From the sequence record MK327941.1: DNA of 64,000 nt. One strand, given 5' to 3'. The stretch is from Escherichia phage vB_EcoM_G37-3. Below the pieces are notes generated by a model that had not been told where the DNA came from, did no database searches, and saw only the letters and a list, made by a program, of their open reading frames with translations. This document shows, piece by piece, positions 15,482 to 61,800 of the stretch. A program made the translations under genes and the position numbers. Position 1 is the stretch's first letter. Each line of letters starts with the position of its first letter.

Positions 15482-15510
15482 ATTATGCTATACCCTATTC
15501 CTGTTGTCAA
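15482..15510 (-). promoter_or_regulatory. Early sigma70-type promoter (PeSL-like cassette)
   Basis: Minus strand TTGACA, 17-nt spacer, CATAAT, conserved leader. Confidence 0.5.
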
Positions 15511-15520
15511 CACCTAAAAA

Positions 15521-15550
15521 CGAAAAAGCCACCCTTTCGGATGGCTTTTT
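15521..15550 (-). terminator. Rho-independent terminator
   Basis: Minus strand hairpin GCCATCCGAAAGGGTGGC followed by TTTTTCGTTTTT. Confidence 0.6.
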
Positions 15551-15780: not shown

Positions 15781-16180
15781 TTAAGCCAGTTGAGTGAGTT
15801 TATAAATTGTTTTAAAGCATAGAGCTTTGATATCGTCTAAAACACTCTGTAACGAGCTATCAACATCATTATAAATCTCACTAGCCATTTGCGTTAACTC
15901 TTGCAAATAGGCAATTTCGCTAATCTCCTTGCGGACGACCAACTTTGGCTGATAACGACCAGTGATCCCAATATTGGTTTCAGTGAAATTATCAACCAAT
16001 TCTTGCATTTCAAGATAGAACTCTTCTAGAGCCTTATGTTTTGCATAAGATCCAGGACCAGTTACCCCAAAATGCGCAGAATGCATATAAGTAACACTCA
16101 TCAGACATTCACCGATAAAGCGGTCAACTTTATTAGCCTTTCCCTCTTCGGACGTCTTTAGAAAATCACTGAATTTCATG
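15781..16180 (-). CDS. Hypothetical protein (about 133 aa)
   Basis: Probable ATG at MKFSDFLKTSEEGK with RBS GGAGAA; track start 16278. Confidence 0.45.
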
Positions 16181-16468
16181 TTCTCGATTCTCCATATTAT
16201 GCAACAGAACAAATTGTTGTGCGGCATATCCCCCCATAATAAAACACTGCCTAGAATCCATACATTTACTACGAGCATACATCTTCATAATATGGGCATG
16301 AAATTTCTGGCTGGTTTCAATGGAAGGAGATATTTTGTTTACATATACTATCATTGCGCCGTCGAAATAATCAGTAAAGTCACCAGTTGGATCATATTGA
16401 TCAGCACTGACACTTCCGACCGCAGTCAAGCATATTGCCGCTGTTAGAGTTTTACGAATAAATGACAT
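16166..16468 (-). CDS. Hypothetical secreted protein with N-terminal signal peptide
   Basis: MSFIRKTLTAAICLTAVGSVSA signal-like N-terminus; RBS GGGGGA; TATAAATA late-promoter motif upstream. Confidence 0.45.
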   Translation of the reverse strand: MSFIRKTLTAAICLTAVGSVSADQYDPTGDFTDYFDGAMIVYVNKISPSIETSQKFHAHIMKMYARSKCMDSRQCFIMGGYAAQQFVLLHNMENREHEIQ

Positions 16469-16476
16469 AAGTCATT

Positions 16477-16518
16477 CCCCCAGATTGAAAATATTCAGTT
16501 ATATTTATAATCTGGGGC
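16477..16518 (-). promoter_or_regulatory. T4 late-promoter motif TATAAATA inside an inverted repeat
   Basis: Minus-strand TATAAATA (plus 16502-16509) flanked by CCCCAGATT / AATCTGGGG arms. Confidence 0.45.
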
Positions 16519-16536
16519 TTTATTTATGATTAACTC

Positions 16537-17133
16537 TTATTTGGTAGTACCGTCAATAAAATGTTTACGGCACACAGAAACATATTTATCCTCTGCGCCG
16601 ACTTCTATTTGAGCACCATCGCGAATAACATTACCCTCTTTATCTACACGAAGGACCATTGTTGCTTTCTTGCCACAATGACAAATACCTTTCATTTCGA
16701 CCAGTTTATCAGCAAGTGCCATCAATGCCGCAGATCCTTCAAATAGATTGCCCTGAAAGTCAGTGCGAAGGCCATAGCACAGTACAGGGATATTTGCATC
16801 ATCGACAAGCGCACACAAGCCTAAAACATGCTCTTTAGTCATAAATTGGGCTTCGTCTACAAAAACTGCATCTGGACGCCATCGATCCGGTCTACGTTTA
16901 CCTAACGATTCACGATAAACCAAATCGAAAAGATCATCCGATTTAGTGAAGGTGATCGCTGGAGCACTTAGACCAATTCGGGAAACAACTTCACTTTCTG
17001 AATATCGATTATCAATCGCTGGCTTAAGAATTAATACTCGCATATCACGTTCGGTATAGTTATAAGCACTTTGTAACAGAGAAGTTGATTTGCCAGCGTT
17101 CATAGATGCATAGTAGAAATATAATTGCGCCAT
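16537..17133 (-). CDS. tk: Thymidine kinase
   Basis: ASMNAGKST P-loop, VDEAQF, C-terminal CHCGKKA zinc motif; collinear with T4 Tk. Confidence 0.9.
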   Translation of the reverse strand: MAQLYFYYASMNAGKSTSLLQSAYNYTERDMRVLILKPAIDNRYSESEVVSRIGLSAPAITFTKSDDLFDLVYRESLGKRRPDRWRPDAVFVDEAQFMTKEHVLGLCALVDDANIPVLCYGLRTDFQGNLFEGSAALMALADKLVEMKGICHCGKKATMVLRVDKEGNVIRDGAQIEVGAEDKYVSVCRKHFIDGTTK

Positions 17134-27094: not shown

Positions 27095-27125
27095 ATAAAA
27101 AAGCCACTCCGAAGAGTGGCTTATA
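27095..27125 (-). terminator. Rho-independent terminator
   Basis: Minus strand hairpin GCCACTC-TTCG-GAGTGGC followed by TTTTTT. Confidence 0.6.
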
Positions 27126-27271
27126 GGGAAGGTAGCGAATCTTCCTTATCTCCAACCTGCTAGCGGCCTAGCAAGTGAATGCTTTAGCGTACCGGATCAC
27201 CCCCATACGCTGTAATAAATGCGGCTAGGTGACGTCCAAATCATTCTAACCGCGCTGTCTTTAGTTCACTA

Positions 27272-27490
27272 TTATTTATATCGCTTTCTCTCGCGACGTT
27301 TTTGATCTTCTTCCTTGATAGAGTTAAACGCATCAAAAAGACACATGACACTAATAATAAACATAACCGTATTTTCTACGATATCCCACGGCTTCGCATC
27401 GGTACAGATTCCCCAAACTGTAAGAAATGCAAATAGTGCAGAAGAGATCACAAGCATGATACTTGCTAAGATATAAAAAGTCATTTTCAT
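27272..27490 (-). CDS. Small membrane protein
   Basis: Hydrophobic ORF with basic C-terminus KEEDQKRRERKRYK. Confidence 0.4.
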   Translation of the reverse strand: MKMTFYILASIMLVISSALFAFLTVWGICTDAKPWDIVENTVMFIISVMCLFDAFNSIKEEDQKRRERKRYK

Positions 27491-31574: not shown

Positions 31575-31600
31575 AAAGCCCGTCATTGACGGGCTTAATC
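31575..31600. terminator. Bidirectional hairpin terminator
   Basis: AGCCCGTCA-TTGACGGGCT hairpin; T-run on minus strand side. Confidence 0.5.
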
Positions 31601-32743
31601 TTAACTATTGATCATATCAATGACGTTTTGTAGCTCTGATATGGATAGCGTTTCTGTATATCCATCGGGCATATCTTCTTTACTAACATAGAAACCTTTA
31701 TACTTTTTCTTTATTGCACATTCCATAGAAAGAGCATCATCACCGTTATCGTATTTTTTATAAAATGTCAACTCATGACGAAATATAGATTTTGAAGATT
31801 GGTTTTGTATTCTTTTTATTAATCTGTTGTTGGTTATACCAAATTTTATAGCAACCGCAACATCTTCTTTGTATAAAGTTTGTACATAAATGTATGCAGG
31901 TTTATTCCTCTTAAATCCATGATTGCTACACATAGGGCAACCGCTATTTTTTGATACGTAGTCTCCTAAGTTTGGCGTAAATTCATGTCCGCTACTACAA
32001 CGCATTACCAATTTTGTTTTTAGCATTCCTCTATACTCACCGCCAACAAAATCAACAAATGTATCACCTTTATCAATCGCCTTATCTGTTATTTCCTTTA
32101 CTACTTGCTCAGTTGACTTCTTGTTTTTACCTGAACATAGTTTACATCTAGATCCATTAACTAAAAACGAGTGACCGGATGCAGTATATTCATGTCCATT
32201 AGGGCATTTAACTAAGATATTTCTTTCATAAAAATCTTTATAATCAGACACATAGTCAATGACTTCGTGGTCTTTTTGGTTATTCCTCATCTCTGTTAGC
32301 AACTCTTCGCTATTCCAGCGTTTACCCTTAACGCAGAGACAACCATGACCTTGATAAAGATATATAAATTTCTTAGTAAAGTTTTTGTTGCAATCAGGAC
32401 AATGCATTAGTAATTCTGTCATTTGACCTGTATATCCTTTAGGAATATCGATCAATGTGTATTTTCCGCATATTGTCTTTAATGCATCATCTATTCTTTC
32501 TTTGGTCCAGCGTAAGCGACCAGTGCATTCATGACATTTTACACCCAGTCTAAGAGTATCTAAACTAAATATAGTTGACGTATGTCCTTTATCACATTTT
32601 AACTTAAATCTAGTATCCTTTGCGTTGGTGTATTCTCCGACTAGACCATACCATTCATAACCACATGGGATATGTTCTTTTACCTTCTCTAGATATACAC
32701 CGAACGGTCTAGGAACTGAATTAGGTTTTCTTTCTTTAGTCAT
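31601..32743 (-). CDS. Multi zinc-ribbon protein with C-terminal GIY-YIG-like (T5orf172-type) domain; putative homing-endonuclease-like selfish gene
   Basis: At least six C-x2-C ... GH pairs; C-terminal AYIYVQ...IKFGITNN...GYTETLSIS resembles the T5orf172 motif pattern; inserted between gene 3 and gene 2. Confidence 0.55.
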   Translation of the reverse strand: MTKERKPNSVPRPFGVYLEKVKEHIPCGYEWYGLVGEYTNAKDTRFKLKCDKGHTSTIFSLDTLRLGVKCHECTGRLRWTKERIDDALKTICGKYTLIDIPKGYTGQMTELLMHCPDCNKNFTKKFIYLYQGHGCLCVKGKRWNSEELLTEMRNNQKDHEVIDYVSDYKDFYERNILVKCPNGHEYTASGHSFLVNGSRCKLCSGKNKKSTEQVVKEITDKAIDKGDTFVDFVGGEYRGMLKTKLVMRCSSGHEFTPNLGDYVSKNSGCPMCSNHGFKRNKPAYIYVQTLYKEDVAVAIKFGITNNRLIKRIQNQSSKSIFRHELTFYKKYDNGDDALSMECAIKKKYKGFYVSKEDMPDGYTETLSISELQNVIDMINS

Positions 32744-32761: not shown

Positions 32762-32785
32762 TTAAAGCGCCGTCACCAGCGGCGC
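32762..32785. other. Hairpin between gene 2 and inserted gene
   Basis: Inverted repeat AGCGCCG-TCACCAG-CGGCGCT. Confidence 0.4.
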
Positions 32786-32799
32786 TATTTTTATAATCA

Positions 32800-33632: not shown

Positions 33633-34106
33633 CTATTTGTTAAGCCCTTTAAAGCCAAACACTTTCTTTAATGCATGTTCGGTGATGATCTTAAACTCCA
33701 TGTTATGCTTTTGGCATAATTTCACGGCAGCTAACCATTTTTCAGTATTTTTTGTGTATGTCCATACTTCATGCATATATCGTTGCTTTGTCTTCGCGGT
33801 CATTCTTTTTGGCTTTTCCGGTGGCCTTGTCTCTTTAGCTGGTTTAACTTCCCATAAATGCTCCTTGCCATCATCAAACTTAACGTAAAAATCCATAAAG
33901 TATCTGTGTCTTTTCCCGTCTGTTGATGACTCATAAGGAATTACTACGGTCTCAGATCCCCATTTTGAAACTCTAGGATTGCGGTCTAGCCACTGCATGA
34001 TCCATCTTTCCCAGCTTGAACGGTATGTGATCTTACGTATATCCCCTTTATACTTTTCCTTATTCTCAGGAACATACTTGCCCTTATAAGTGTTAGATCC
34101 TCCCAT
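33633..34106 (-). CDS. 4: Head completion protein gp4
   Basis: Aligns with T4 gp4 (GKYVP, YRSSWERW, VVIPY, DGKRHRYFMDFY, FKIITEH). Confidence 0.8.
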   Translation of the reverse strand: MGGSNTYKGKYVPENKEKYKGDIRKITYRSSWERWIMQWLDRNPRVSKWGSETVVIPYESSTDGKRHRYFMDFYVKFDDGKEHLWEVKPAKETRPPEKPKRMTAKTKQRYMHEVWTYTKNTEKWLAAVKLCQKHNMEFKIITEHALKKVFGFKGLNK

Positions 34107-34110
34107 TTTA

Positions 34111-34157
34111 GCACCCTTTATTATAAATACATAATACTATTTATCAATTGAGGGTGC
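34111..34157 (+). promoter_or_regulatory. T4-type late promoter TATAAATA (34122-34129) flanked by inverted repeat, upstream of gene 53
   Basis: Exact TATAAATA; arms TAGCACCCT / AGGGTGCTA. Confidence 0.6.
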
Positions 34158-34161
34158 TAAA

Positions 34162-34716
34162 ATGCTCTTTTCTTTCTTCCCTGCCATTGAATACAACGGC
34201 AAGATGATTACTGACATTGTGCGCAATTACCGCGCCTATTTCAACGCAATAATTTCTGATTATAACATACAAACATATTACATTCAAGGTAGTCCACGAC
34301 CGGAACAAGTTGCATATGAAGTATACGGAAACCAACAACTTTATTGGATCTTGCTGATGCTTAATGACGTATACGATCCGTTCCATGACTGGATCACCGA
34401 TCAAGAGACAGCATATGAATCAGCCGAACAGCGATATGCAAATGTAGGAGGAAATCAAGTATTATACCACGTTGATATTGACGGAAACAAGTATTGGAAT
34501 CTTACCGAATATCCGAAAGGATCAAGCAATTGGTATGATAAAGGGGATATTCATCATCGTCATTTGCAGTTTCAAGGTGCACTATCGGCAGTAGACACAC
34601 TGGAAGATGCGATCCTCCGTAATGAGGAACGACGCAAGATCAAGATCATAGATCCTACACAAATTAAACAATTTATTAACGCATTCATTCGAGAAATGGA
34701 AAAGGCTGATGTGTAA
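34162..34716 (+). CDS. 53: Baseplate wedge protein gp53
   Basis: Aligns with T4 gp53 (YYIQGSPRPE, QLYWILLMLND, WYDKGD, GALSAVDT). Confidence 0.8.
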   Translation: MLFSFFPAIEYNGKMITDIVRNYRAYFNAIISDYNIQTYYIQGSPRPEQVAYEVYGNQQLYWILLMLNDVYDPFHDWITDQETAYESAEQRYANVGGNQVLYHVDIDGNKYWNLTEYPKGSSNWYDKGDIHHRHLQFQGALSAVDTLEDAILRNEERRKIKIIDPTQIKQFINAFIREMEKADV

Positions 34717-43925: not shown

Positions 43926-43941
43926 GTGTATGATTTAAAAA

Positions 43942-43966
43942 GCCAATTCTAGAGAGTTGGCTTTTT
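43942..43966 (+). terminator. Rho-independent terminator after gene 8
   Basis: Hairpin AGCCAA-TTCTAGAGAG-TTGGCT followed by TTTTT. Confidence 0.6.
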
Positions 43967-43969
43967 CTA

Positions 43970-43997
43970 TTTTGGGTGTTGACAATCTTGTCTGATA
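43970..43997 (+). promoter_or_regulatory. Sigma70-type promoter driving inserted cassette
   Basis: TTGACA (43970-43975), 16-nt spacer, TATAAT (43992-43997); RBS GGAGGA before ATG 44036. Confidence 0.65.
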
Positions 43998-44035
43998 AGG
44001 TATAATGCTCACATCTAAACAACGGAGGATAAATT

Positions 44036-45492: not shown

Positions 45493-45500
45493 TATAAATA
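45493..45500 (+). promoter_or_regulatory. T4-type late promoter TATAAATA upstream of gene 9
   Basis: Exact TATAAATA about 27 nt before gene 9 ATG. Confidence 0.6.
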
Positions 45501-50242: not shown

Positions 50243-52011
50243 TGATCGAACAGTTAAACATTCGAAAGATCCCTAACGTCGATGGTGTCCCTGGAGAGGG
50301 ACAGCATTCTATTAGCTGGATTAAAAATGGTGAATGTCTAAGCGCAGCAACCACAGAAACAGGACACGAGGGGACGCTTAACCGCGCCCCTTATGCGATT
50401 CAAGAAAATATTGTTCGTCTGGATGAAAATTCTAAGACAACGGTAACAAAAGTTAACGAAGTTGTTACAGCAGTTAATGATATTAAAACTACTTTAGGCG
50501 CGGTTGCTGATGGTAGTATTATTGATATTGTCAATCAAACTATTGCAAAGGTTGAGTCTGTAGAAGAAAATTTAGGAGAAACTTCAAGGACATTACAAAC
50601 CACAGTAGATGAACTGGCGGAGACAGGAAAGAAAATTGGTGTTCGTCCGGCAGCAGATCCGAGTACACGAACAATATATGATGATATTTCTTTCATCAAA
50701 CAAGAATTGGGCGCTTTCCCTAACTTCAATATCAACGGTTCTCCAGATCCGGGTAGTTCCGGTTCCGGTATCAAATATCGAGTTATCCAGAATACGGAAG
50801 CATTAAACAACCACGGTCAGCGAATCCGCCAACTAGAAAACGACTGGCAAGATTCTGACGTTGGAGAGCTAACAAAACAAGTTAACAAAATGCGAAGCGA
50901 GCTAGGCGATACATCACTAGCAACACAGGACAATGTTTATCTTCGTCTTCGCACAAATACTCGCAATATCGCTAGTATATCAAACGAAGTTCAGGAAGTA
51001 AAGAAAGCGATTCTATTTGAATCAATTCCTGATATCGGGACTAAAGTAACTAAGCTACAATCTGATTATACACAGCTTAATGATGAAGTCAACGGCGTTG
51101 ACGCTGGTATCCGTCCTCGTTTAACTCTTCTGGAAAATAATATTGGCAATCCTCAAGCCGCTGGAAGTATTGATTATCGATTGACTAATCAAGAACGGGA
51201 ATGTGTAGATCTTAAATCTGTTGTCGGTGTTAGTGGTGCTGATGGCCTACGTGGTGAGGTTGCACGAATATCTAACACAGTTGGTACTGATAGTGAGCGT
51301 CATACTATCGCAGGTCGTCTAAAAATTGTAGAAAACACACAGGGACGACTAGAAGCTAGCGTACAGGATATCGAGCAAATGATCGGCGATCGAGATTCCG
51401 GTCTAACCGCCGGGGTTATTAAGCTGTCAAGCGACATGTACGGTAATCCAGAAGGAAGCACGCAGCTTGAACAAGATGGGATCGTGAAAACTGTTAAGGA
51501 ATTGAGCACATCCAATGCAAGTAAGGTAACAGACGTTCCTGATGATGGTTTCCATTATCTACGTAAGCACGGGGAATGGGTTCAGGTCGCATGGGCGGCT
51601 GGTGCATTTAAAAACACCGCTCAGATTGATATTACTCTCGACGGACAAGATCAATACAAAGGAATCCCGCTAAACGATATGACCGAAGAAGTTCCTGCGC
51701 GTGGAATGGTTAAGAGCGAATCTATTGTTACGGTTAACGACAAAGGCTTATTCCGTTGTGTTTTCCGTTGTTCTGTACATGCTGCACATAACGCTACTTT
51801 CGTAGTCGGTATTGCTAAAAATGGTCAGATTGTACATGAGGTACGAAATGGTCAGTATGGAACTGATGATTTAATTAGCTATTCTACCAGTGCTTTCCTA
51901 AATATTGAAAAGGGCGACCGGATCGATATTCGCATTAAGGGCGTATCCGAAGAAACATTAGCGCAACAGCTACAAATTAAAGAGTTCCTCTTTGGAATTT
52001 CTCCGGTATAA
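50242..52011 (+). CDS. wac: Fibritin (whisker antigen control) Wac
   Basis: N-terminus VDGVPGEGQHSISWIKNGE matches T4 fibritin; coiled-coil body. Confidence 0.85.
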   Translation: MIEQLNIRKIPNVDGVPGEGQHSISWIKNGECLSAATTETGHEGTLNRAPYAIQENIVRLDENSKTTVTKVNEVVTAVNDIKTTLGAVADGSIIDIVNQTIAKVESVEENLGETSRTLQTTVDELAETGKKIGVRPAADPSTRTIYDDISFIKQELGAFPNFNINGSPDPGSSGSGIKYRVIQNTEALNNHGQRIRQLENDWQDSDVGELTKQVNKMRSELGDTSLATQDNVYLRLRTNTRNIASISNEVQEVKKAILFESIPDIGTKVTKLQSDYTQLNDEVNGVDAGIRPRLTLLENNIGNPQAAGSIDYRLTNQERECVDLKSVVGVSGADGLRGEVARISNTVGTDSERHTIAGRLKIVENTQGRLEASVQDIEQMIGDRDSGLTAGVIKLSSDMYGNPEGSTQLEQDGIVKTVKELSTSNASKVTDVPDDGFHYLRKHGEWVQVAWAAGAFKNTAQIDITLDGQDQYKGIPLNDMTEEVPARGMVKSESIVTVNDKGLFRCVFRCSVHAAHNATFVVGIAKNGQIVHEVRNGQYGTDDLISYSTSAFLNIEKGDRIDIRIKGVSEETLAQQLQIKEFLFGISPV

Positions 52012-53652: not shown

Positions 53653-54385
53653 TTCTAACTTATTCGCAAGACTAGAAAATGGTAGCGGATATGATAAAAC
53701 ATACGCGACGGAGATTTTAAATCCGTGGGTGAATTTTAATTCACATACAAACACCCAGACGTTAGCCGACGTTATGGTCGCCGAAGCTATTCAGATGCGA
53801 GGTGTAGAATTATATTACATCCCTCGTGAATTTGTCAAACCAGATATGATATTTGGTGAGGATGTTCAAAGCAAATTTACTAAAGCATGGAAATTTGCGG
53901 CTTATATTAACTCATTTGATGGGTATGAAGGAGCGGGTAACTTCTTCTCTAGTTTCGGTTATCAAGCCAATGATGAACTAACTTTTACGGTTAACCCCAA
54001 CCTATTCAAGCATCAAGTAGATGATCAAGAGCCAAAATCAGGTGACTTGATTTATATTCCAATGAGTAATGATTTATTTGAAATCTCATATGTAGAGCCA
54101 TATCAGCCGTTTTTTCAGGCTGGCAAAAATGCCATGCGTAAAATTATTGCAGAGAAATTCGTGTATAGCGGCGAGGAATTGCGACCAGAATTACAACGCA
54201 ATGAGGGAATTAATGTTGATGAGTTTGCGGATCTGGACCTTGCACCGATCACTAATCTGGACGGATTAACAGATATCAACTTAGAACAGTACAAAGAAGA
54301 TAAGCAATTCAGAAGCGAAGGACAAGATTTTATTGACCCGTTTGATCCTATTAATGGCAAGGGTTCACCTTTTGCTAATTTTTGA
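53639..54385 (+). CDS. 14: Neck protein gp14
   Basis: 248-aa ORF at gene 14 position. Confidence 0.8.
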
Positions 54386-54411
54386 TAAATACTCATAAAC
54401 AAGGGGGTCAA

Positions 54412-55245
54412 ATGTTCGGTTGGCACTATAATTCGTCAATTAGACGGTATATTGTATTGCTGGGTAATTTATTCTCCGGCGTACAAATTAAAAGGGTGCG
54501 TAGTGACGGTGAGCGTTTTATTAAAGTTCCTATCACCTACGCAAAGAAAGAAAAATTCATGATGAGTCTGGACAAATATAACAATATCTCAAGCGAGGAA
54601 GACGTAGCAAAGGTAGAAACTATTTTACCGCGTATGTGTCTTTCTTTGATTGATATGACATACGCCCAGAACTTTAAAACAAATATTGCAAATAAGACAG
54701 TACCAAAATATACGGCTGATGGAATCAGGAGTGTGACACAATATAATCCTGTACCATATAAGTTTACTTTCGAGTTGGGGATTTATACACGTAACGAAGA
54801 TGATATGTTTCAGATAATTGAACAGATTCTCCCTTACTTCCAGCCTCATTTTAACTGTAAGATTAAAGAACTACACGGCAATGATGTATGGATTGATCGA
54901 GATATTCAGGTCACAATTAGTTCTATTACTCCAGATGAACAGGTAGGCGAAGATAAGTTTTCTCGTCGTCGTCTTGAGTGGACCATCATGTTTGAGTTCA
55001 TCGGGTTTATCTATCCTCCAGCTACCGACGTTAAGGGGGAAATCAGAACGATTTATCTCGATTTTCATGCTAATTCTCGTGAATTAAATCCTAGCGGTAA
55101 TTTTGAATCTGTGGATCATGAGGTCGTTAAACGTGATGTTGAGCAAGAAGAATGGGATGGAACAATCAAAGAATCATATTCTAGTGATATTCCAATACCA
55201 GTTGCACCAACTCCACCGGGTCCACGTATTGTAAGAGAATTTTAA
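54412..55245 (+). CDS. 15: Tail sheath stabiliser / tail terminator gp15
   Basis: MFGWHYNSSIRRYIVLLGNLFSGVQIKR matches T4 gp15 N-terminus; ATG at 54412 with RBS AAGGGGG. Confidence 0.85.
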   Translation: MFGWHYNSSIRRYIVLLGNLFSGVQIKRVRSDGERFIKVPITYAKKEKFMMSLDKYNNISSEEDVAKVETILPRMCLSLIDMTYAQNFKTNIANKTVPKYTADGIRSVTQYNPVPYKFTFELGIYTRNEDDMFQIIEQILPYFQPHFNCKIKELHGNDVWIDRDIQVTISSITPDEQVGEDKFSRRRLEWTIMFEFIGFIYPPATDVKGEIRTIYLDFHANSRELNPSGNFESVDHEVVKRDVEQEEWDGTIKESYSSDIPIPVAPTPPGPRIVREF

Positions 55246-55258
55246 GAGGTAATTTATT

Positions 55259-57576
<2,318 letters not shown>

Positions 57577-59681: not shown

Positions 59682-60176
59682 ATGGCACTCGATTTGAATG
59701 ATATTACACGCGGTTTCGAGTCTGGCGATTTTGCTCGTCCTAACCTGTTTGAAGTTGAGATACCGTATCTGGGGCAAAACTTTAAGCTGATGTGTAAGGC
59801 TGCGACTGTCCCGGCTGCTACCGTAGAAAAAATTGCTGTAGGCTATCAAAACCGTAAAATTAACATCGCTGGCGACCGTGTATACGACGACTGGACCATC
59901 ACTGTATTCAACGATGACGCACACAAGATCCGTGATGCTATCGTTGCATGGAGCGATCAGACACACGGCACTGGTTCGGCGATCACTGGTGCAACTCCTG
60001 CACAATATAAGAAACAAGCTATTGTTCGTCAACTTAACCGTAACACCGAATCAACTAGCGAAAAAACATTGTACGGTATTTTCCCAACCAACGTTGGTGA
60101 AGTAACCCTCGATTGGGAACAAAACAACGAAGTTGAAACGTTTGAAGTTACTTTTGCTATCGATTGGGTAGAATAA
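59682..60176 (+). CDS. 19: Tail tube protein gp19
   Basis: 164-aa ORF between sheath and portal genes, size and position as T4 gp19. Confidence 0.88.
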   Translation: MALDLNDITRGFESGDFARPNLFEVEIPYLGQNFKLMCKAATVPAATVEKIAVGYQNRKINIAGDRVYDDWTITVFNDDAHKIRDAIVAWSDQTHGTGSAITGATPAQYKKQAIVRQLNRNTESTSEKTLYGIFPTNVGEVTLDWEQNNEVETFEVTFAIDWVE

Positions 60177-60188
60177 ATATATTATCAT

Positions 60189-60207
60189 GCGGGGAGAAGT
60201 TCCCCGC
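60189..60207 (+). other. Conserved stem-loop between genes 19 and 20
   Basis: GCGGGGAGAAGTTCCCCGC hairpin, near-identical to hairpin at 59642-59661. Confidence 0.5.
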
Positions 60208-60234
60208 CTAATTTCTCCCAATTCGAGGTGAATA

Positions 60235-61800
60235 ATGTTTAGTAGATTAAAAATGCTTGCGCGTTGGGCTGATTTTGACAACGACAAATACGAAGAACAA
60301 ATTAAAGATAAAGCAGAGTCTATCGCCGCACCTAAAAACAATGATGGTGCTACGGAAGTAGAAATTAATGATAATTCACCTGCTAGCTCGTGGAACTCTC
60401 TTACCCAGCAATTTTACAGCACCGACCAGAAAATCAGCACAACTAAGCAATTAGTTAACACATATCGCGGTTTGATGAATAACCATGAAGTCGAAAACGC
60501 TGTACAAAATATCGTTAACGATGCGATTGTATTTGAAGAAGGTCATGAAGTTGTTTCATTAAATCTTGAGGCGACTGGCTTTAGTGAATCTGTAAAAGAG
60601 CGCATTCATGAAGAATTTAAAGATCTTTTAAACACTATCCAGTTTGATAGACGCGGTCAGGATATGTTCCGTCGCTGGTATGTCGATTCTCGTATTTTCT
60701 TCCATAAAATCATCGGCAAAAATCCAAAAGATGGTATCATAGAATTACGCCAGCTTGACCCACGTAATCTTGAATACGTTCGAGAGATCATTACAGAAGA
60801 CACACCGGAAGGTAAAATTTATAAAGCAACGAAAGAATATTTCATTTACACTGTAGGCAATAGCTCTTATTGCGCAGGTGGTCAAGTATTCTCTCCTAAT
60901 AGTCGCGTTAAAATCCCGCGTAGTGCTATTACATACGCTCACAGCGGCTTGATGGATTGCGATGATAAATATATCATTGGTTATTTGCATCGGGCTGTTA
61001 AGCCAGCAAACCAGCTTAAATTGTTGGAAGACGCAATGGTCGTTTATCGTATCACGCGTGCACCGGAACGCCGAGTGTTCTTTATTGATACCGGAAACAT
61101 GAACAACCGCAAGGCTGCACAGCACATGAACTCAGTGGCACAGTCTTTTAAAAACCGCGTTGTTTATGATGCATCGACTGGTAAACTTAAAAACCAGCAA
61201 GCAAATCTATCAATGACAGAGGACTACTGGTTACAGCGTCGAGATGGTAAAGCAATCACCGACGTTACTACTTTACCAGGTGCATCCGGTATGAGTGATA
61301 TCGATGATATTCGCTACTTTAACCGTAAATTGTATGAAGCGTTGCGTGTGCCATTGTCACGTAGCAATCTCTCCGATGCAAATATGGTGATCGGTGGTGA
61401 CGGTTCAGAAATTACTCGCGATGAGTTGGAATTTTCGAAATTCATTAGAACTCTGCAATCACAGTTTTCGGAAGTATTGCGCGATCCGCTTAAATATAAT
61501 CTGATTCTCAAAAATGTAATTACGGAAGACGATTGGGATCGTGAAATAAATAATATCAAGGTGGTTTTCCATCGGGACTCTTACTATACAGAAGTTAAAG
61601 ACGCGGAAATTTTAGAGCGTCGAATCGGTCTAATCGAACGTATTACACCTTACATTGGTAAATATTTCTCTAACCAGACAGTGATGCGTGACATTCTGAA
61701 ATATACCGATGACCAGATGGACACCGAGAAGAAACAGATCGAAGAAGAAGCGAACGATCCGCGCTTTAAACAAACTCCCGATGAAATAGAGGATTTTTAA
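60235..61800 (+). CDS. 20: Portal vertex protein gp20
   Basis: Identity blocks with T4 gp20 (RRWYVDSRIFFHKII, GYLHRAVKPANQLKLLEDA, MTEDYWLQRRDGKA). Confidence 0.92.
   Translation: MFSRLKMLARWADFDNDKYEEQIKDKAESIAAPKNNDGATEVEINDNSPASSWNSLTQQFYSTDQKISTTKQLVNTYRGLMNNHEVENAVQNIVNDAIVFEEGHEVVSLNLEATGFSESVKERIHEEFKDLLNTIQFDRRGQDMFRRWYVDSRIFFHKIIGKNPKDGIIELRQLDPRNLEYVREIITEDTPEGKIYKATKEYFIYTVGNSSYCAGGQVFSPNSRVKIPRSAITYAHSGLMDCDDKYIIGYLHRAVKPANQLKLLEDAMVVYRITRAPERRVFFIDTGNMNNRKAAQHMNSVAQSFKNRVVYDASTGKLKNQQANLSMTEDYWLQRRDGKAITDVTTLPGASGMSDIDDIRYFNRKLYEALRVPLSRSNLSDANMVIGGDGSEITRDELEFSKFIRTLQSQFSEVLRDPLKYNLILKNVITEDDWDREINNIKVVFHRDSYYTEVKDAEILERRIGLIERITPYIGKYFSNQTVMRDILKYTDDQMDTEKKQIEEEANDPRFKQTPDEIEDF

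What the first reader, a model, noticed from the sequence alone, without database searches (positions are those of the whole stretch)
34111..34157. Late promoter TATAAATA presented between inverted-repeat arms at the gene 4 / gene 53 divergence point, with a second similar case at 16477-16518
At the switch from the minus-strand early block to the plus-strand late block, the exact late promoter motif (34122-34129) lies inside an inverted repeat TAGCACCCT ... AGGGTGCTA. A second late motif on the minus strand (16502-16509) lies inside CCCCAGATT ... AATCTGGGG upstream of a secreted-protein gene. Together with the PeSL early promoters this suggests a general architecture in which promoter elements are embedded in stem-loops, possibly as recombination or regulatory modules.
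Basis: seen in the sequence. Interest (0 to 1): 0.4.

Follow-up and report, generated by a model that had tools for sequence, protein, structure and literature searches.

The report
Late promoters inside ribosome-site-masking hairpins
In this RB49-like T4-type phage, two late promoters sit inside hairpins whose arms are the ribosome-binding sites of the genes they drive. This is a new example of a T4 timing device that is already well known, and it is not a new promoter or recombination architecture.

Summary
Both observations are real. The window is a Krischvirus (RB49/Phi1 group).

**Site 1:**
- The repeat is longer than reported: a perfect 14-bp repeat, CATTTTAGCACCCT / AGGGTGCTAAAATG.
- Its arms are the Shine-Dalgarno, spacer and start codon of divergent late genes 4 and 53.
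- The loop holds two crossed late promoters: TATAAATA for gene 53 and GATAAATA for gene 4.
- Crossed late motifs at this junction are ancient (33 of 36 junctions that carry both motifs).
- The long arm complementarity is found only in Krischvirus. It varies without compensation: RB49 itself has a mismatch.

**Site 2:**
- The hairpin lies between tk and rI (antiholin).
- Its 3' arm is the rI Shine-Dalgarno sequence.
- The late promoter sits so that late transcripts lack the 5' arm.
- No terminator separates tk from rI.
- Both stems are invariant in six haplotypes, and variation falls only in unpaired positions.

**Reading:** this is the classic T4 device known from e, soc, 49 and I-TevI. Read-through RNA masks the ribosome site, and late-promoter RNA frees it. 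The case is well grounded for rI and plausible but unproven for genes 4/53.

**Not supported:**
- It is not general: three of six exact late motifs lack it.
- It is not PeSL-like.
- Gene 4 is a late gene, not an early one.

The parts
34104..34117 (-). Site 1 left arm. On the minus strand it reads AGGGTGCTAAAATG, which is the Shine-Dalgarno, spacer and AUG of gene 4.
   Evidence: Sequence. Inverted repeat. Gene 4 start is at 34106. P(unpaired) is 0.07 in read-through RNA and 0.61 in late-promoter RNA.
34151..34164 (+). Site 1 right arm, AGGGTGCTAAAATG. This is the Shine-Dalgarno, spacer and AUG of gene 53.
   Evidence: P(unpaired) is 0.01 in read-through RNA and 0.51 in late-promoter RNA. Position 34158 is C/A polymorphic and uncompensated in RB49, JSE, ECD7 and ELT4.
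34122..34129 (+). Exact late promoter motif TATAAATA for gene 53. The predicted +1 is about 34135.
   Evidence: The rule that the motif spans -13 to -6 comes from PMC1524935. An equivalent gene-53-direction motif is present in most T4-like junctions.
34138..34145 (-). Candidate late promoter GATAAATA for gene 4. The predicted +1 is about 34132. It is crossed with the gene 53 promoter.
   Evidence: G at -13 recurs at this position in 8 independent lineages. Position -13 is poorly conserved in RB49-type late promoters (PMC1524935), and variant promoters are used in T4 (PMC2988020). Not mapped experimentally.
34120..34147 (-). σ70-like match TTGATA-N16-TATAAT (11 of 12), overlapping both late motifs. 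Probably a by-product.
   Evidence: Unlike the 19 minus-strand early-region promoters of the window, it lacks an exact TTGACA, and it lacks the leader that many of them share.
33633..34106 (-). Gene 4 (head completion / head closure), a late gene.
   Evidence: phrog_218, E 7.5e-61.
34162..34716 (+). Gene 53 (baseplate wedge subunit), a late gene.
   Evidence: phrog_232, E 1.7e-64.
16509..16517 (-). Site 2 5' arm (RNA CCCCAGAUU). It lies upstream of the predicted late +1, so it is present only in read-through RNA from tk.
   Evidence: Invariant in 6 haplotypes, including JK32 where the adjacent flank has diverged.
16478..16486 (-). Site 2 3' arm (RNA AAUCUGGGG). It contains the rI Shine-Dalgarno G-run, which ends 8 nt before the AUG.
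16502..16509 (-). Exact late promoter motif TATAAATA for rI. The predicted +1 is about 16496.
   Evidence: T4 has an exact TATAAATA at the equivalent place after tk, and it is documented as the rI-operon late promoter (PMC2962797).
16521..16528 (-). Second late-like motif CATAAATA, just after the tk stop codon. Its transcripts would still contain most of the 5' arm.
   Evidence: Absent in JK32.
16460..16477 (-). Small second hairpin GAAUGAC-UUAU-GUCAUUU that presents the rI AUG.
   Evidence: Analogous hairpins with different sequence occur in T4, VP8 and WSPA.
16166..16468 (-). rI (lysis-inhibition antiholin).
   Evidence: phrog_1246, E 2.7e-25.
16537..17133 (-). tk (thymidine kinase), an upstream gene on the same strand. 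It is the source of read-through transcripts.
   Evidence: No canonical terminator lies between tk and rI.
15482..15550 (-). Genuine PeSL used as a comparator. It consists of terminator stem-loop 15550-15523 followed by TTGACA-N17-CATAAT (15510-15482), and it ends the tk-rI-rI.-1 unit.
   Evidence: PeSL definition from PMC2839356.

Best explanation
Both elements are instances of the T4-type device in which a late promoter sits inside a hairpin that masks the ribosome-binding site.

**How the device works**
- The 3' arm of each hairpin is the Shine-Dalgarno region of the downstream late gene. At site 1 the arm also includes the start codon.
- The gp55-type late promoter (TATAAATA, spanning -13 to -6) lies between the arms.
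- RNA that enters from upstream contains both arms and folds. This hides the ribosome site.
- RNA that starts at the internal late promoter lacks the 5' arm and can be translated.

**Site 2**
- The device gates rI (antiholin). Early transcripts running through tk would not make RI.
- Only late transcripts, starting at about 16496, would make RI.

**Site 1**
- The device is doubled and symmetric. Two crossed divergent late promoters sit between two identical 14-nt initiation regions: TATAAATA for gene 53 and GATAAATA for gene 4.
- Each gene's initiation region is therefore the other's masking strand. Any transcript crossing the junction in either direction would be untranslatable for the gene it enters.

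**Shown versus inferred**
- Shown: the anatomy, the folding energetics, the identity of the arms as initiation regions, the position of the promoters, the absence of a terminator after tk, and the conservation pattern.
- Inferred: the transcription start points, the existence of read-through RNA at site 1, and the translational effect itself.
For: **Arms are the initiation regions**
- The arms coincide with SD, spacer and AUG of genes 4 and 53, and with the SD of rI.

**Folding**
- Read-through RNAs fold strongly: z -6.9, -3.7 and -4.8.
- In read-through RNA, mean P(unpaired) over the TIR is 0.01 (gene 53) and 0.07 (gene 4). In RNAs started at the predicted late +1 it is 0.51 and 0.61, and those RNAs fold no better than shuffles (z -0.6 to -1.0).
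- For rI, the G-run of the SD is 0.0 unpaired in read-through RNA and 0.1-0.6 in late RNA.

**Read-through at site 2**
- No canonical terminator lies between tk and rI. The unit ends at a real terminator plus early promoter at 15550-15482.
- In T4 the rI operon is documented to be transcribed both from a late promoter between tk and rI.1 and from an early promoter 3.3 kb upstream (PMC2962797).
- T4 has an exact TATAAATA at that place.

**Conservation at site 2**
- In 6 haplotypes, 15 of 15 hairpin pairs never vary. All five substituted columns upstream of the SD fall in unpaired positions.
- JK32 keeps both arms, the promoter and the SD although its flank and loop have diverged.

**Site 1**
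- The 14-bp repeat is unique in the window.
- It is a large outlier among 45 independent junctions: duplex -21.8 kcal/mol against -11.5 or weaker elsewhere.

**The mechanism is established**
- It has been shown for T4 e, soc, 49, I-TevI/II/III and segB, and for Aeh1 mobE (PMC3014915, PMC2988022).
- In MIZ6-type relatives an HNH homing endonuclease gene uses the site-1 arm as its own initiation region. Homing endonucleases are the gene class best known for this device.
Against: **No direct or covariation evidence**
- No compensatory change was seen at either site.
- No transcript 5' ends or translation data exist for these phages in what I could search.

**Site 1**
- The arms vary without compensation in the type phage RB49 and in JSE, ECD7, ELT4 and phiS.
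- The long arms are absent from the nearest outgroups and from T4.
- It is not shown that any transcript crosses the junction. Upstream of each gene lies only antisense of late genes, with candidate terminators on the way.
- GATAAATA as the gene-4 promoter is inferred.

**Site 2**
- Most paired columns are also constrained by the promoter or the SD. Only the eight 5'-arm columns outside the TATAAATA motif (16510-17) give 'pure' structural evidence.
- The start codon is held in a second small hairpin in both RNA forms.
- Other genera manage rI without this hairpin.
Confidence: 0.6

Rival explanations
1. Site 1 only. The palindrome is a by-product with no hairpin function. Two divergent late genes each need a late promoter, an SD and an AUG, and packing these into 55 nt automatically gives an imperfect palindrome. 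Mutational processes then extended it to perfect 14-bp arms. Candidates are an inverted duplication of a 'promoter + TIR' module, or the templated quasi-palindrome correction known from T4 mutagenesis (my own background knowledge, not tested here).
For: - Crossed divergent late-type motifs are the rule at this junction: 36 of 56 junctions have both motifs, and 33 of those are crossed.
- T4 shows the same layout with only a 5-bp SD-SD complement.
- Within-phage TIR similarity only slightly exceeds cross-phage similarity: 5.3 against 4.5 of 14 positions.
- The arms tolerate an uncompensated substitution and an indel in many isolates.
- The closest outgroups lack long arms.
- Read-through RNA across the junction is not demonstrated.
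Against: - The 14-nt identity goes well beyond what an SD and an AUG require, and it is shared with no other gene start in the window.
- A perfect repeat of 14 bp or more is expected about 0.03 times per window.
- The region is almost invariant in 58 records, even where gene 4 next to it is only 77% identical.
Confidence: 0.35
2. Site 2 only. The hairpin is an intrinsic transcription terminator ending the tk unit, as annotated in two GenBank records. The late promoter then simply restarts transcription for rI.
For: - ARNOLD-based annotation in vB_EcoM_G5211 (minus strand, -11.16) and a terminator feature in TB34 (plus strand).
- Klebsiella phage KP15 has a true terminator followed by TATAAATA before rI.
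- PeSL stem-loops in RB49 and Phi1 do terminate transcription (PMC2839356).
Against: - On the transcribed (minus) strand the stem is followed by GAAUGACUUAUG, with no U-tract.
- The consensus scan does not call it, but it does call the real terminator at 15550-15523.
- The T-rich tail exists only on the plus strand, which carries no gene here.
- The two annotations disagree on strand.
Confidence: 0.12
3. These are late-promoter counterparts of PeSLs: mobile or recombinogenic promoter-stem-loop cassettes that mediate modular shuffling.
For: - A homing endonuclease ORF is inserted exactly at the inner edge of the site-1 arm in MIZ6, PTE-Eco09 and ELT4.
- Divergent gene-4 alleles switch from about 100% to about 80% identity within 50 nt of the palindrome.
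Against: - The arm sequences are unique in the window. PeSLs are a repeated family with σ70 consensus promoters and terminator stem-loops (PMC2839356).
- Neither PeSL paper mentions late promoters.
- The mosaic boundary and the insertion are more simply explained by homing-endonuclease-driven gene conversion at gene 4.
- Site 2 shows no associated rearrangement.
Confidence: 0.1
4. Site 1 only. The element works at the DNA level. It is either an early σ70 promoter (TTGATA-N16-TATAAT) for gene 4, or a symmetric operator for a regulatory protein such as the neighbouring homing endonuclease, as with I-TevI autorepression.
For: - It is the best σ70-like match in 30-40 kb, at 11 of 12.
- I-TevI binds an operator overlapping its own late promoter (PMC2988022).
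Against: - Its -35 is TTGATA, whereas all 19 minus-strand early-region promoters have an exact TTGACA. It also lacks the leader that many of them share.
- Both hexamers are sub-strings of the two late motifs.
- Its predicted start would remove the SD.
- The palindrome is identical in phages with and without the endonuclease.
- The arm centres are 47 bp apart, which is atypical for a dimer operator.
Confidence: 0.05

Closest known systems
T4 translational gating by an RBS-sequestering hairpin with an internal late promoter (genes e, soc, 49; I-TevI/II/III, segB; Aeh1 mobE)
   Same: - The SD, or SD plus AUG, is paired in a stable hairpin on longer transcripts.
- A TATAAATA-type promoter is placed so that late RNAs lack the 5' strand.
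- The gated genes are late genes.
- For rI, the gene lies downstream of an early unit on the same strand.
(PMC3014915, PMC2988022)
   Different: - rI has not, to my knowledge or in the papers I searched, been listed among such genes. T4 itself has the late promoter after tk but no masking hairpin.
- At site 1 the masking strand is not anonymous leader sequence. It is the initiation region of the divergent neighbour, so one palindrome would serve two genes.
- At site 1 the source of read-through RNA is unknown.
Divergent late promoters at the gene 4 / gene 53 junction of T4 and other T4-like phages
   Same: Two late-type motifs in opposite orientation, usually crossed, lie between the two start codons. 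This holds for T4, Pseudomonas, Vibrio, Aeromonas, Acinetobacter and many marine relatives.
   Different: Elsewhere the complementarity is limited to the promoter motifs and short SD cores. Only Krischvirus has 14-nt identical initiation regions and a hairpin of about -27 kcal/mol.
PeSL (promoter-early stem-loop) cassettes of RB49/Phi1
   Same: They occur in the same phage group, and an intergenic promoter is associated with a stem-loop ahead of an SD and a start codon.
   Different: - PeSLs use σ70 TTGACA/TATAAT promoters with an AT-rich upstream region.
- Their G/C-tract stem-loops act as terminators.
- They are repeated, and they flank ORFans in hyperplastic regions (PMC2839356).
- The present sites use gp55-type motifs, have unique arms made of the TIR, and lack a U-tract.
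Rho-independent terminators (as site 2 is annotated in MK327947 and OX001802)
   Same: A stem-loop with four G-C pairs directly after a stop codon.
   Different: There is no U-tract on the transcribed strand, the 3' arm is the next gene's SD, and a late promoter is embedded in it.

Membership tests
T4-type late promoter within an RBS-sequestering hairpin | A stable hairpin pairs the Shine-Dalgarno sequence and/or the AUG of the gene on longer transcripts | tested here: met
   - Site 1: 15-16 of 17 TIR bases are paired; -27 to -28 kcal/mol; z -8.3 and -6.6.
- Site 2: the SD G-run is paired in the 9-bp outer stem; z -5.6. The AUG is not in this stem.
T4-type late promoter within an RBS-sequestering hairpin | A late promoter is positioned so that late transcripts lack the 5' strand of the hairpin | tested here: met
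   - Met by sequence geometry only.
- The motifs lie at 34122-29 (+), 34145-38 (-) and 16509-02 (-). The predicted +1 sites are about 34135, 34132 and 16496, all 3' of the respective 5' arms (-13 to -6 rule from PMC1524935).
- RNAs from these starts are unstructured.
- The start sites are not mapped, and the gene-4 motif is a G(-13) variant.
T4-type late promoter within an RBS-sequestering hairpin | The gene is also carried on longer transcripts initiated upstream (site 2, rI) | tested here: met
   - tk lies directly upstream on the same strand.
- No canonical terminator occurs until 15550-15523.
- The T4 rI operon is documented to have an early promoter 3.3 kb upstream as well as the late one (PMC2962797).
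- In silico and by homology only.
T4-type late promoter within an RBS-sequestering hairpin | The gene is also carried on longer transcripts initiated upstream (site 1, genes 4 and 53) | tested here: inconclusive
   - Upstream of each gene lies only antisense of late genes.
- Strong σ70-type matches exist on the minus strand inside the late block (53838->53809 at 12 of 12, and others).
- A 10 of 12 match lies at 34287->34259.
- Candidate minus-strand terminators intervene.
- A bidirectional hairpin at 32766-32786 guards the plus strand.
T4-type late promoter within an RBS-sequestering hairpin | Stem maintained in relatives (conservation or compensatory change) | tested here: inconclusive
   - Site 2: 15 of 15 pairs are invariant in 6 haplotypes, variation falls only in unpaired columns, and there is no compensatory change. 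The hairpin is absent outside the genus.
- Site 1: 24 of 25 pairs are invariant. One pair is broken without compensation in 2 of 5 haplotypes, and there is an indel in phiS. The long arms are absent outside the genus.
T4-type late promoter within an RBS-sequestering hairpin | Translation is repressed on long transcripts and relieved on late transcripts (experimental) | not testable with these tools
   This needs reporter fusions or ribosome profiling in infected cells.
PeSL (promoter-early stem-loop) | σ70-consensus early promoter with an AT-rich upstream region | tested here: not met
   - Site 2: no match of 9 of 12 or better overlaps the hairpin.
- Site 1: one match at 11 of 12, but its -35 is TTGATA, it is built from the two late motifs, and it lacks the conserved PeSL leader.
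PeSL (promoter-early stem-loop) | G/C-tract stem-loop acting as terminator or attenuator for upstream transcription | tested here: not met
   There is no U-tract after either stem on the coding strands, and the terminator scan does not call them. The site-1 stems are largely A/U plus GCACCC.
PeSL (promoter-early stem-loop) | Member of a repeated sequence family flanking ORFans in hyperplastic regions | tested here: not met
   The arm sequences have no other copy in the window at 2 mismatches or fewer (site 1) or at 0 mismatches (site 2). The flanking genes are conserved core or LIN genes.
Rho-independent terminator (site 2 as annotated) | G+C-rich stem immediately followed by a U-run on the transcribed strand | tested here: not met
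   On the minus strand the stem is followed by GAAUGACUUAUG, and the scan does not detect it. A T-rich tail exists only on the gene-free plus strand.
Known RNA families (Rfam 15) | Match reaching a family's gathering score | tested here: not met
   No hit at site 2. At site 1 there are only generic hairpin matches of about 20 bits against thresholds of 35-100.

The most novel reading that the evidence does not exclude
The site-1 palindrome is a bidirectional translational insulator. The initiation regions of two divergent late genes have been made mutually complementary. Any RNA crossing the junction from either side therefore folds into a hairpin of about -27 kcal/mol that hides the SD and the AUG of the gene it enters. 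Such RNA could include early 'anti-late' transcripts from σ70-type promoters inside the late block. Only RNAs born at the crossed late promoters inside the loop would be translated. One element would then do for two genes what the T4 e-type hairpin does for one.
Probability: 0.25. Interest if true: 0.45.

Novelty: new member of a known kind. Interest (0 to 1): 0.3.

Why it matters
**Annotation.** The site-2 hairpin is currently annotated as a terminator in public Krischvirus records. It is better read as a translational gate on the antiholin gene rI. That would restrict RI synthesis to the late period, when its partner, the holin T, is made.

**Evolution of the device.** T4 keeps the orthologous late promoter without the hairpin, and KP15 uses a terminator instead. 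Related phages therefore solve the same timing problem in different ways.

**Site 1.** If it is functional, it would be a compact two-way version of the device at a junction whose crossed late promoters are conserved across the T4 superfamily. RB49 (mismatched arms) and Phi1 (perfect arms) already provide natural variants for a test.

**Limits.** None of this changes the understanding of late transcription. The mechanism class has been known since the 1980s.

Tried and rejected
- **Rfam.** Searches at both sites gave nothing above threshold.
- **PeSL membership.** Rejected on promoter type, stem type and uniqueness (PMC2839356, PMC4122927).
- **Covariation within Krischvirus.** The intergenic regions are almost invariant, so no compensatory change can be scored.
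- **Covariation across genera by within-phage versus cross-phage TIR pairing.** The effect was small but significant (p 0.002-0.006). It is explained by lineage-specific SD usage plus the Krischvirus outlier, so I do not take it as evidence for selected pairing.
- **Search for further haplotypes.**
  - The loop-anchored metagenome scan found one contig with the same perfect haplotype.
  - A degenerate viral-contig pattern for site 2 returned essentially only chance AT-rich hits.
- **Extra candidates.** gp15 (54384) and gp20 (60172) looked similar in one MFE screen but are not significant (z -1.4 and -2.3).
- **T4 records.** They carry no promoter features in the local copy.
- **Literature.**
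  - The T4 genome review (PMC150520) is not held.
  - A search for 'anti-late' RNA found nothing relevant.
- **σ70 promoter inside the site-1 loop.** Considered and judged a by-product.
Full report
**Identity of the window.** Megablast of both sites places the window in Krischvirus, the RB49/Phi1/JSE group of T4-like coliphages. Identity is 99-100% to vB_EcoM_G5211, Phi1, RB49 and about 55 other records. Curated records and profile searches identify the following genes:
- gene 4 (head completion), 33633-34106 (-)
- gene 53 (baseplate wedge), 34162-34716 (+)
- tk, 16537-17133 (-)
- rI (lysis-inhibition antiholin), 16166-16468 (-)

The genes next to site 1 on the minus strand (4, 2, 3) are late virion genes.

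**Observation check.**
- *Site 1.* TATAAATA is at 34122-34129 (+), and the stated 9-bp arms are present. The repeat is actually CATTTTAGCACCCT (34104-34117) / AGGGTGCTAAAATG (34151-34164), which is 14 bp perfect and extends to 19 nt at 89%. It is the only perfect inverted repeat of 12 bp or more with a loop of 45 nt or less in the window. About 0.03 such repeats are expected at 14 bp or more. It folds far better than shuffles on both strands (z -8.3 and -6.6).
- *Site 2.* TATAAATA is at 16509->16502 (-). The arms are CCCCAGATT (16478-16486) and AATCTGGGG (16509-16517), and the motif overlaps one arm by 1 nt. An inner A/U stem gives 17-nt arms at 88%, with fold z -5.6.
- *Chance.* Exact TATAAATA is not enriched as a word: 6 found against 6.6 expected. 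Its meaning therefore comes from position.

**What the arms are.**
- *Site 1.* Read on each gene's own strand, both arms are AGGGTGCTAAAATG. That is the Shine-Dalgarno sequence, a 7-nt spacer and the start codon, of gene 4 on one side and gene 53 on the other. No other gene start in the window resembles this 14-mer at 2 mismatches or fewer.
- *Site 1 loop.* The loop contains the exact late motif for gene 53. On the other strand it contains GATAAATA (34145->34138), pointing at gene 4. The two promoters are crossed, so each lies next to the other gene's start.
- *Site 2.* The 3' arm (AAUCUGGGG, followed by G) is the rI Shine-Dalgarno region, 8 nt before the AUG. The 5' arm lies just after the tk stop codon.

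**Mechanistic test in silico.** T4-type late motifs occupy -13 to -6 (PMC1524935). Late RNAs should therefore start near 34135 (+), 34132 (-) and 16496 (-). Each of these points is 3' of the respective 5' arm.
- RNAs starting there fold no better than shuffles (z -0.6, -0.8, -1.0).
- RNAs entering from upstream fold strongly (z -6.9, -3.7, -4.8).
- Partition-function accessibility of the initiation region falls from 0.51 to 0.01 for gene 53, and from 0.61 to 0.07 for gene 4.
- For rI, the SD G-run is fully paired only in the read-through form.

**Is there read-through RNA?**
- *Site 2: likely.* tk is directly upstream on the same strand. No canonical terminator occurs before 15550-15523, where a genuine terminator plus TTGACA-N17-CATAAT early promoter (a PeSL) ends the unit. 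In T4 the rI operon is reported to be transcribed from a late promoter between tk and rI.1 and from an early promoter 3.3 kb upstream (PMC2962797). T4 carries an exact TATAAATA at that spot but no masking hairpin.
- *Site 1: open.* Upstream of each gene is antisense of late genes. Strong σ70-type matches exist on the antisense strand of the late block (12 of 12 at 53838->53809; also 51092 and 55991), and another lies 150 nt upstream of the junction (34287->34259). Candidate terminators lie in between. T4 is known to transcribe both strands at several sites at different times (PMC2988020).

**Comparative evidence, site 1.**
- *Conservation within the genus.* Among 58 Krischvirus records the 101-nt region is 98-100% identical. 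This holds even where gene 4 is only 77-92% identical at the protein level.
- *Haplotypes.* Three exist. The first is the perfect palindrome (this window, Phi1, G5211 and others). The second has C->A at 34158 in the gene-53 arm (RB49, JSE, ECD7, ELT4; -19.9 against -26.6 kcal/mol). The third has a 1-nt insertion in the gene-4 arm (phiS). Neither change is compensated.
- *Beyond the genus.* I collected about 100 gene-4 loci. In 56 distinct junctions, 36 carry late-type motifs in both directions, and 33 of these are crossed. G at -13 on the gene-4 side recurs in 8 lineages. The crossed promoter pair is therefore ancient.
- *The long arms are not ancient.* Krischvirus is the outlier, at 12 of 14 identity and -21.8 kcal/mol, against -11.5 or weaker in the other 44 junctions. 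T4 has only CCTCC/GGAGG.
It is also not excluded, because the hairpin survives the observed changes.

**Comparative evidence, site 2.**
- Six haplotypes were compared: window, TB34, RB49, JEP8, JK32 and Skers. All 15 pairs of the hairpin are invariant. All five substituted columns upstream of the SD are unpaired (flank, loop, bulge).
- JK32 is the most informative. Its tk-proximal flank and loop have diverged, yet both arms, the late motif and the SD are intact.
- There is no compensatory change. Many paired columns are also promoter or SD, so this is evidence of constraint and not proof of structure.
- Other genera lack the hairpin. T4, PG7, VP8, WSPA and Acj61 couple rI to an upstream rI.1-like gene. 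KP15 has a terminator followed by TATAAATA.

**Generality and PeSLs.**
- *Exact motifs.* Of the six, those at 45493, 57572 and 63162 show no pairing of the initiation region to sequence upstream of +1. The one at 27280->27273 precedes no ORF.
- *All gene starts.* Across about 100 gene models, 5 of 9 starts preceded by NATAAATA have a distally paired TIR, against 18 of 91 others.
- *Extra candidates.* The two extra candidates (gp15, gp20) are not significant.
- *PeSLs.* In this window they are a different thing: 19 near-consensus TTGACA/TATAAT promoters on the early strand, many sharing a conserved leader, next to terminator stem-loops (PMC2839356). Neither PeSL paper mentions late promoters.

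**Recombination.**
- In MIZ6, PTE-Eco09, ELT4 and Brandy-type phages, a 231-aa HNH endonuclease ORF is inserted exactly at the gene-4 ATG. It takes over the arm as its own initiation region and supplies a new SD for gene 4.
- Divergent gene-4 alleles change from about 100% to about 80% identity within 50 nt of the palindrome.
- This fits endonuclease-driven gene conversion at gene 4. It gives only circumstantial support to a 'recombination module' reading.

**Comparison with known systems and verdict.**
- The anatomy matches the T4 device described for e, soc, 49, I-TevI/II/III, segB and Aeh1 mobE (PMC3014915, PMC2988022).
- Site 2 meets every feature testable in silico. I file it as a new member: rI in Krischvirus. 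It is currently mis-annotated as a terminator, on opposite strands in two records.
- Site 1 has the same geometry in a symmetric, two-gene form. Its function rests on unproven read-through RNA, and its arms vary without compensation. A by-product origin is a serious rival.
- Overall this is a real feature, largely explained by a known mechanism, and of modest interest.

Noticed in passing
window 16460-16477 (minus strand); L037 (T4), L032 (VP8), L033 (WSPA): A small hairpin presents the rI AUG in its loop. The stem pairs the bases just 5' of the AUG with codons 2-3. It is kept with different sequences in different genera: GAAUGAC/GUCAUUU here, GGAGGCC/GGCCUU in T4, GGGAC/GUCCC in VP8 and GGGCC/GGUCC in WSPA. 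This looks like compensatory covariation.
   Followed up: partly
L020 (MIZ6) 506-1201; L021 (PTE-Eco09); L122 (ELT4); window 34104-34106: A 231-aa HNH (mob-like) homing endonuclease ORF is inserted exactly at the gene-4 start codon in some Krischvirus isolates. It uses the palindrome arm as its own ribosome site and brings a new SD for gene 4. Divergent gene-4 alleles begin within 50 nt of the palindrome.
   Followed up: partly
about 100 loci L004-L117; T4 L028 1151-1197: Crossed divergent late-type motifs between gene 53 and gene 4 are conserved across the T4 superfamily: 36 of 56 distinct junctions have both, and 33 of those are crossed. In some marine phages they overlap the start codons themselves, for example CATATAAATTGTATTTATATG in L041.
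   Followed up: yes
window 27100-27280 (minus strand): The sixth exact TATAAATA (27280->27273) overlaps the stop codon of a 72-aa ORF. It is followed by about 170 nt with no ORF. That stretch is strongly structured (z -4.2) and ends in a canonical terminator, followed by an early promoter. This is a candidate small RNA driven by a late promoter. There is no tRNA and no Rfam family above threshold.
   Followed up: partly
window 53809-53838, 51065-51092, 55964-55991 (minus strand); 43937-44006 (plus strand): σ70-type promoter matches of 11-12 of 12 lie antisense inside the plus-strand late-gene block and are possible 'anti-late' RNA promoters. A complete PeSL-like unit (terminator plus TTGACA-N16-TATAAT) also lies on the plus strand inside the late block.
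   Followed up: no
window 31601-32743 (minus strand): A 380-aa endonuclease-family ORF (phrog_681, E 4e-81) lies between genes 2 and 3. It is absent from RB49 and is flanked by the hairpins 31576-31596 and 32766-32786. It is probably another mobile endonuclease insertion.
   Followed up: no
window 34120-34147 (minus strand): The best σ70-like match of the 30-40 kb region (TTGATA-N16-TATAAT, 11 of 12) lies inside the site-1 loop and is built from the two late motifs. Its predicted start would remove the gene-4 SD.
   Followed up: partly
L119 (phage Skers), rI start: A 12-nt deletion removes the normal rI start codon and fuses the upstream out-of-frame AUG (GGGGGAAUG) in frame to rI. It is either a natural variant or an assembly error.
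   Followed up: no
window 54339-54415 and 60160-60240 (plus strand): Late-like motifs GATAAATA (before gp15, tail sheath stabilizer) and AATAAATA (before gp20, portal) are enclosed by stems that pair the downstream initiation region in the MFE fold. Neither fold is significant (z -1.4 and -2.3).
   Followed up: yes
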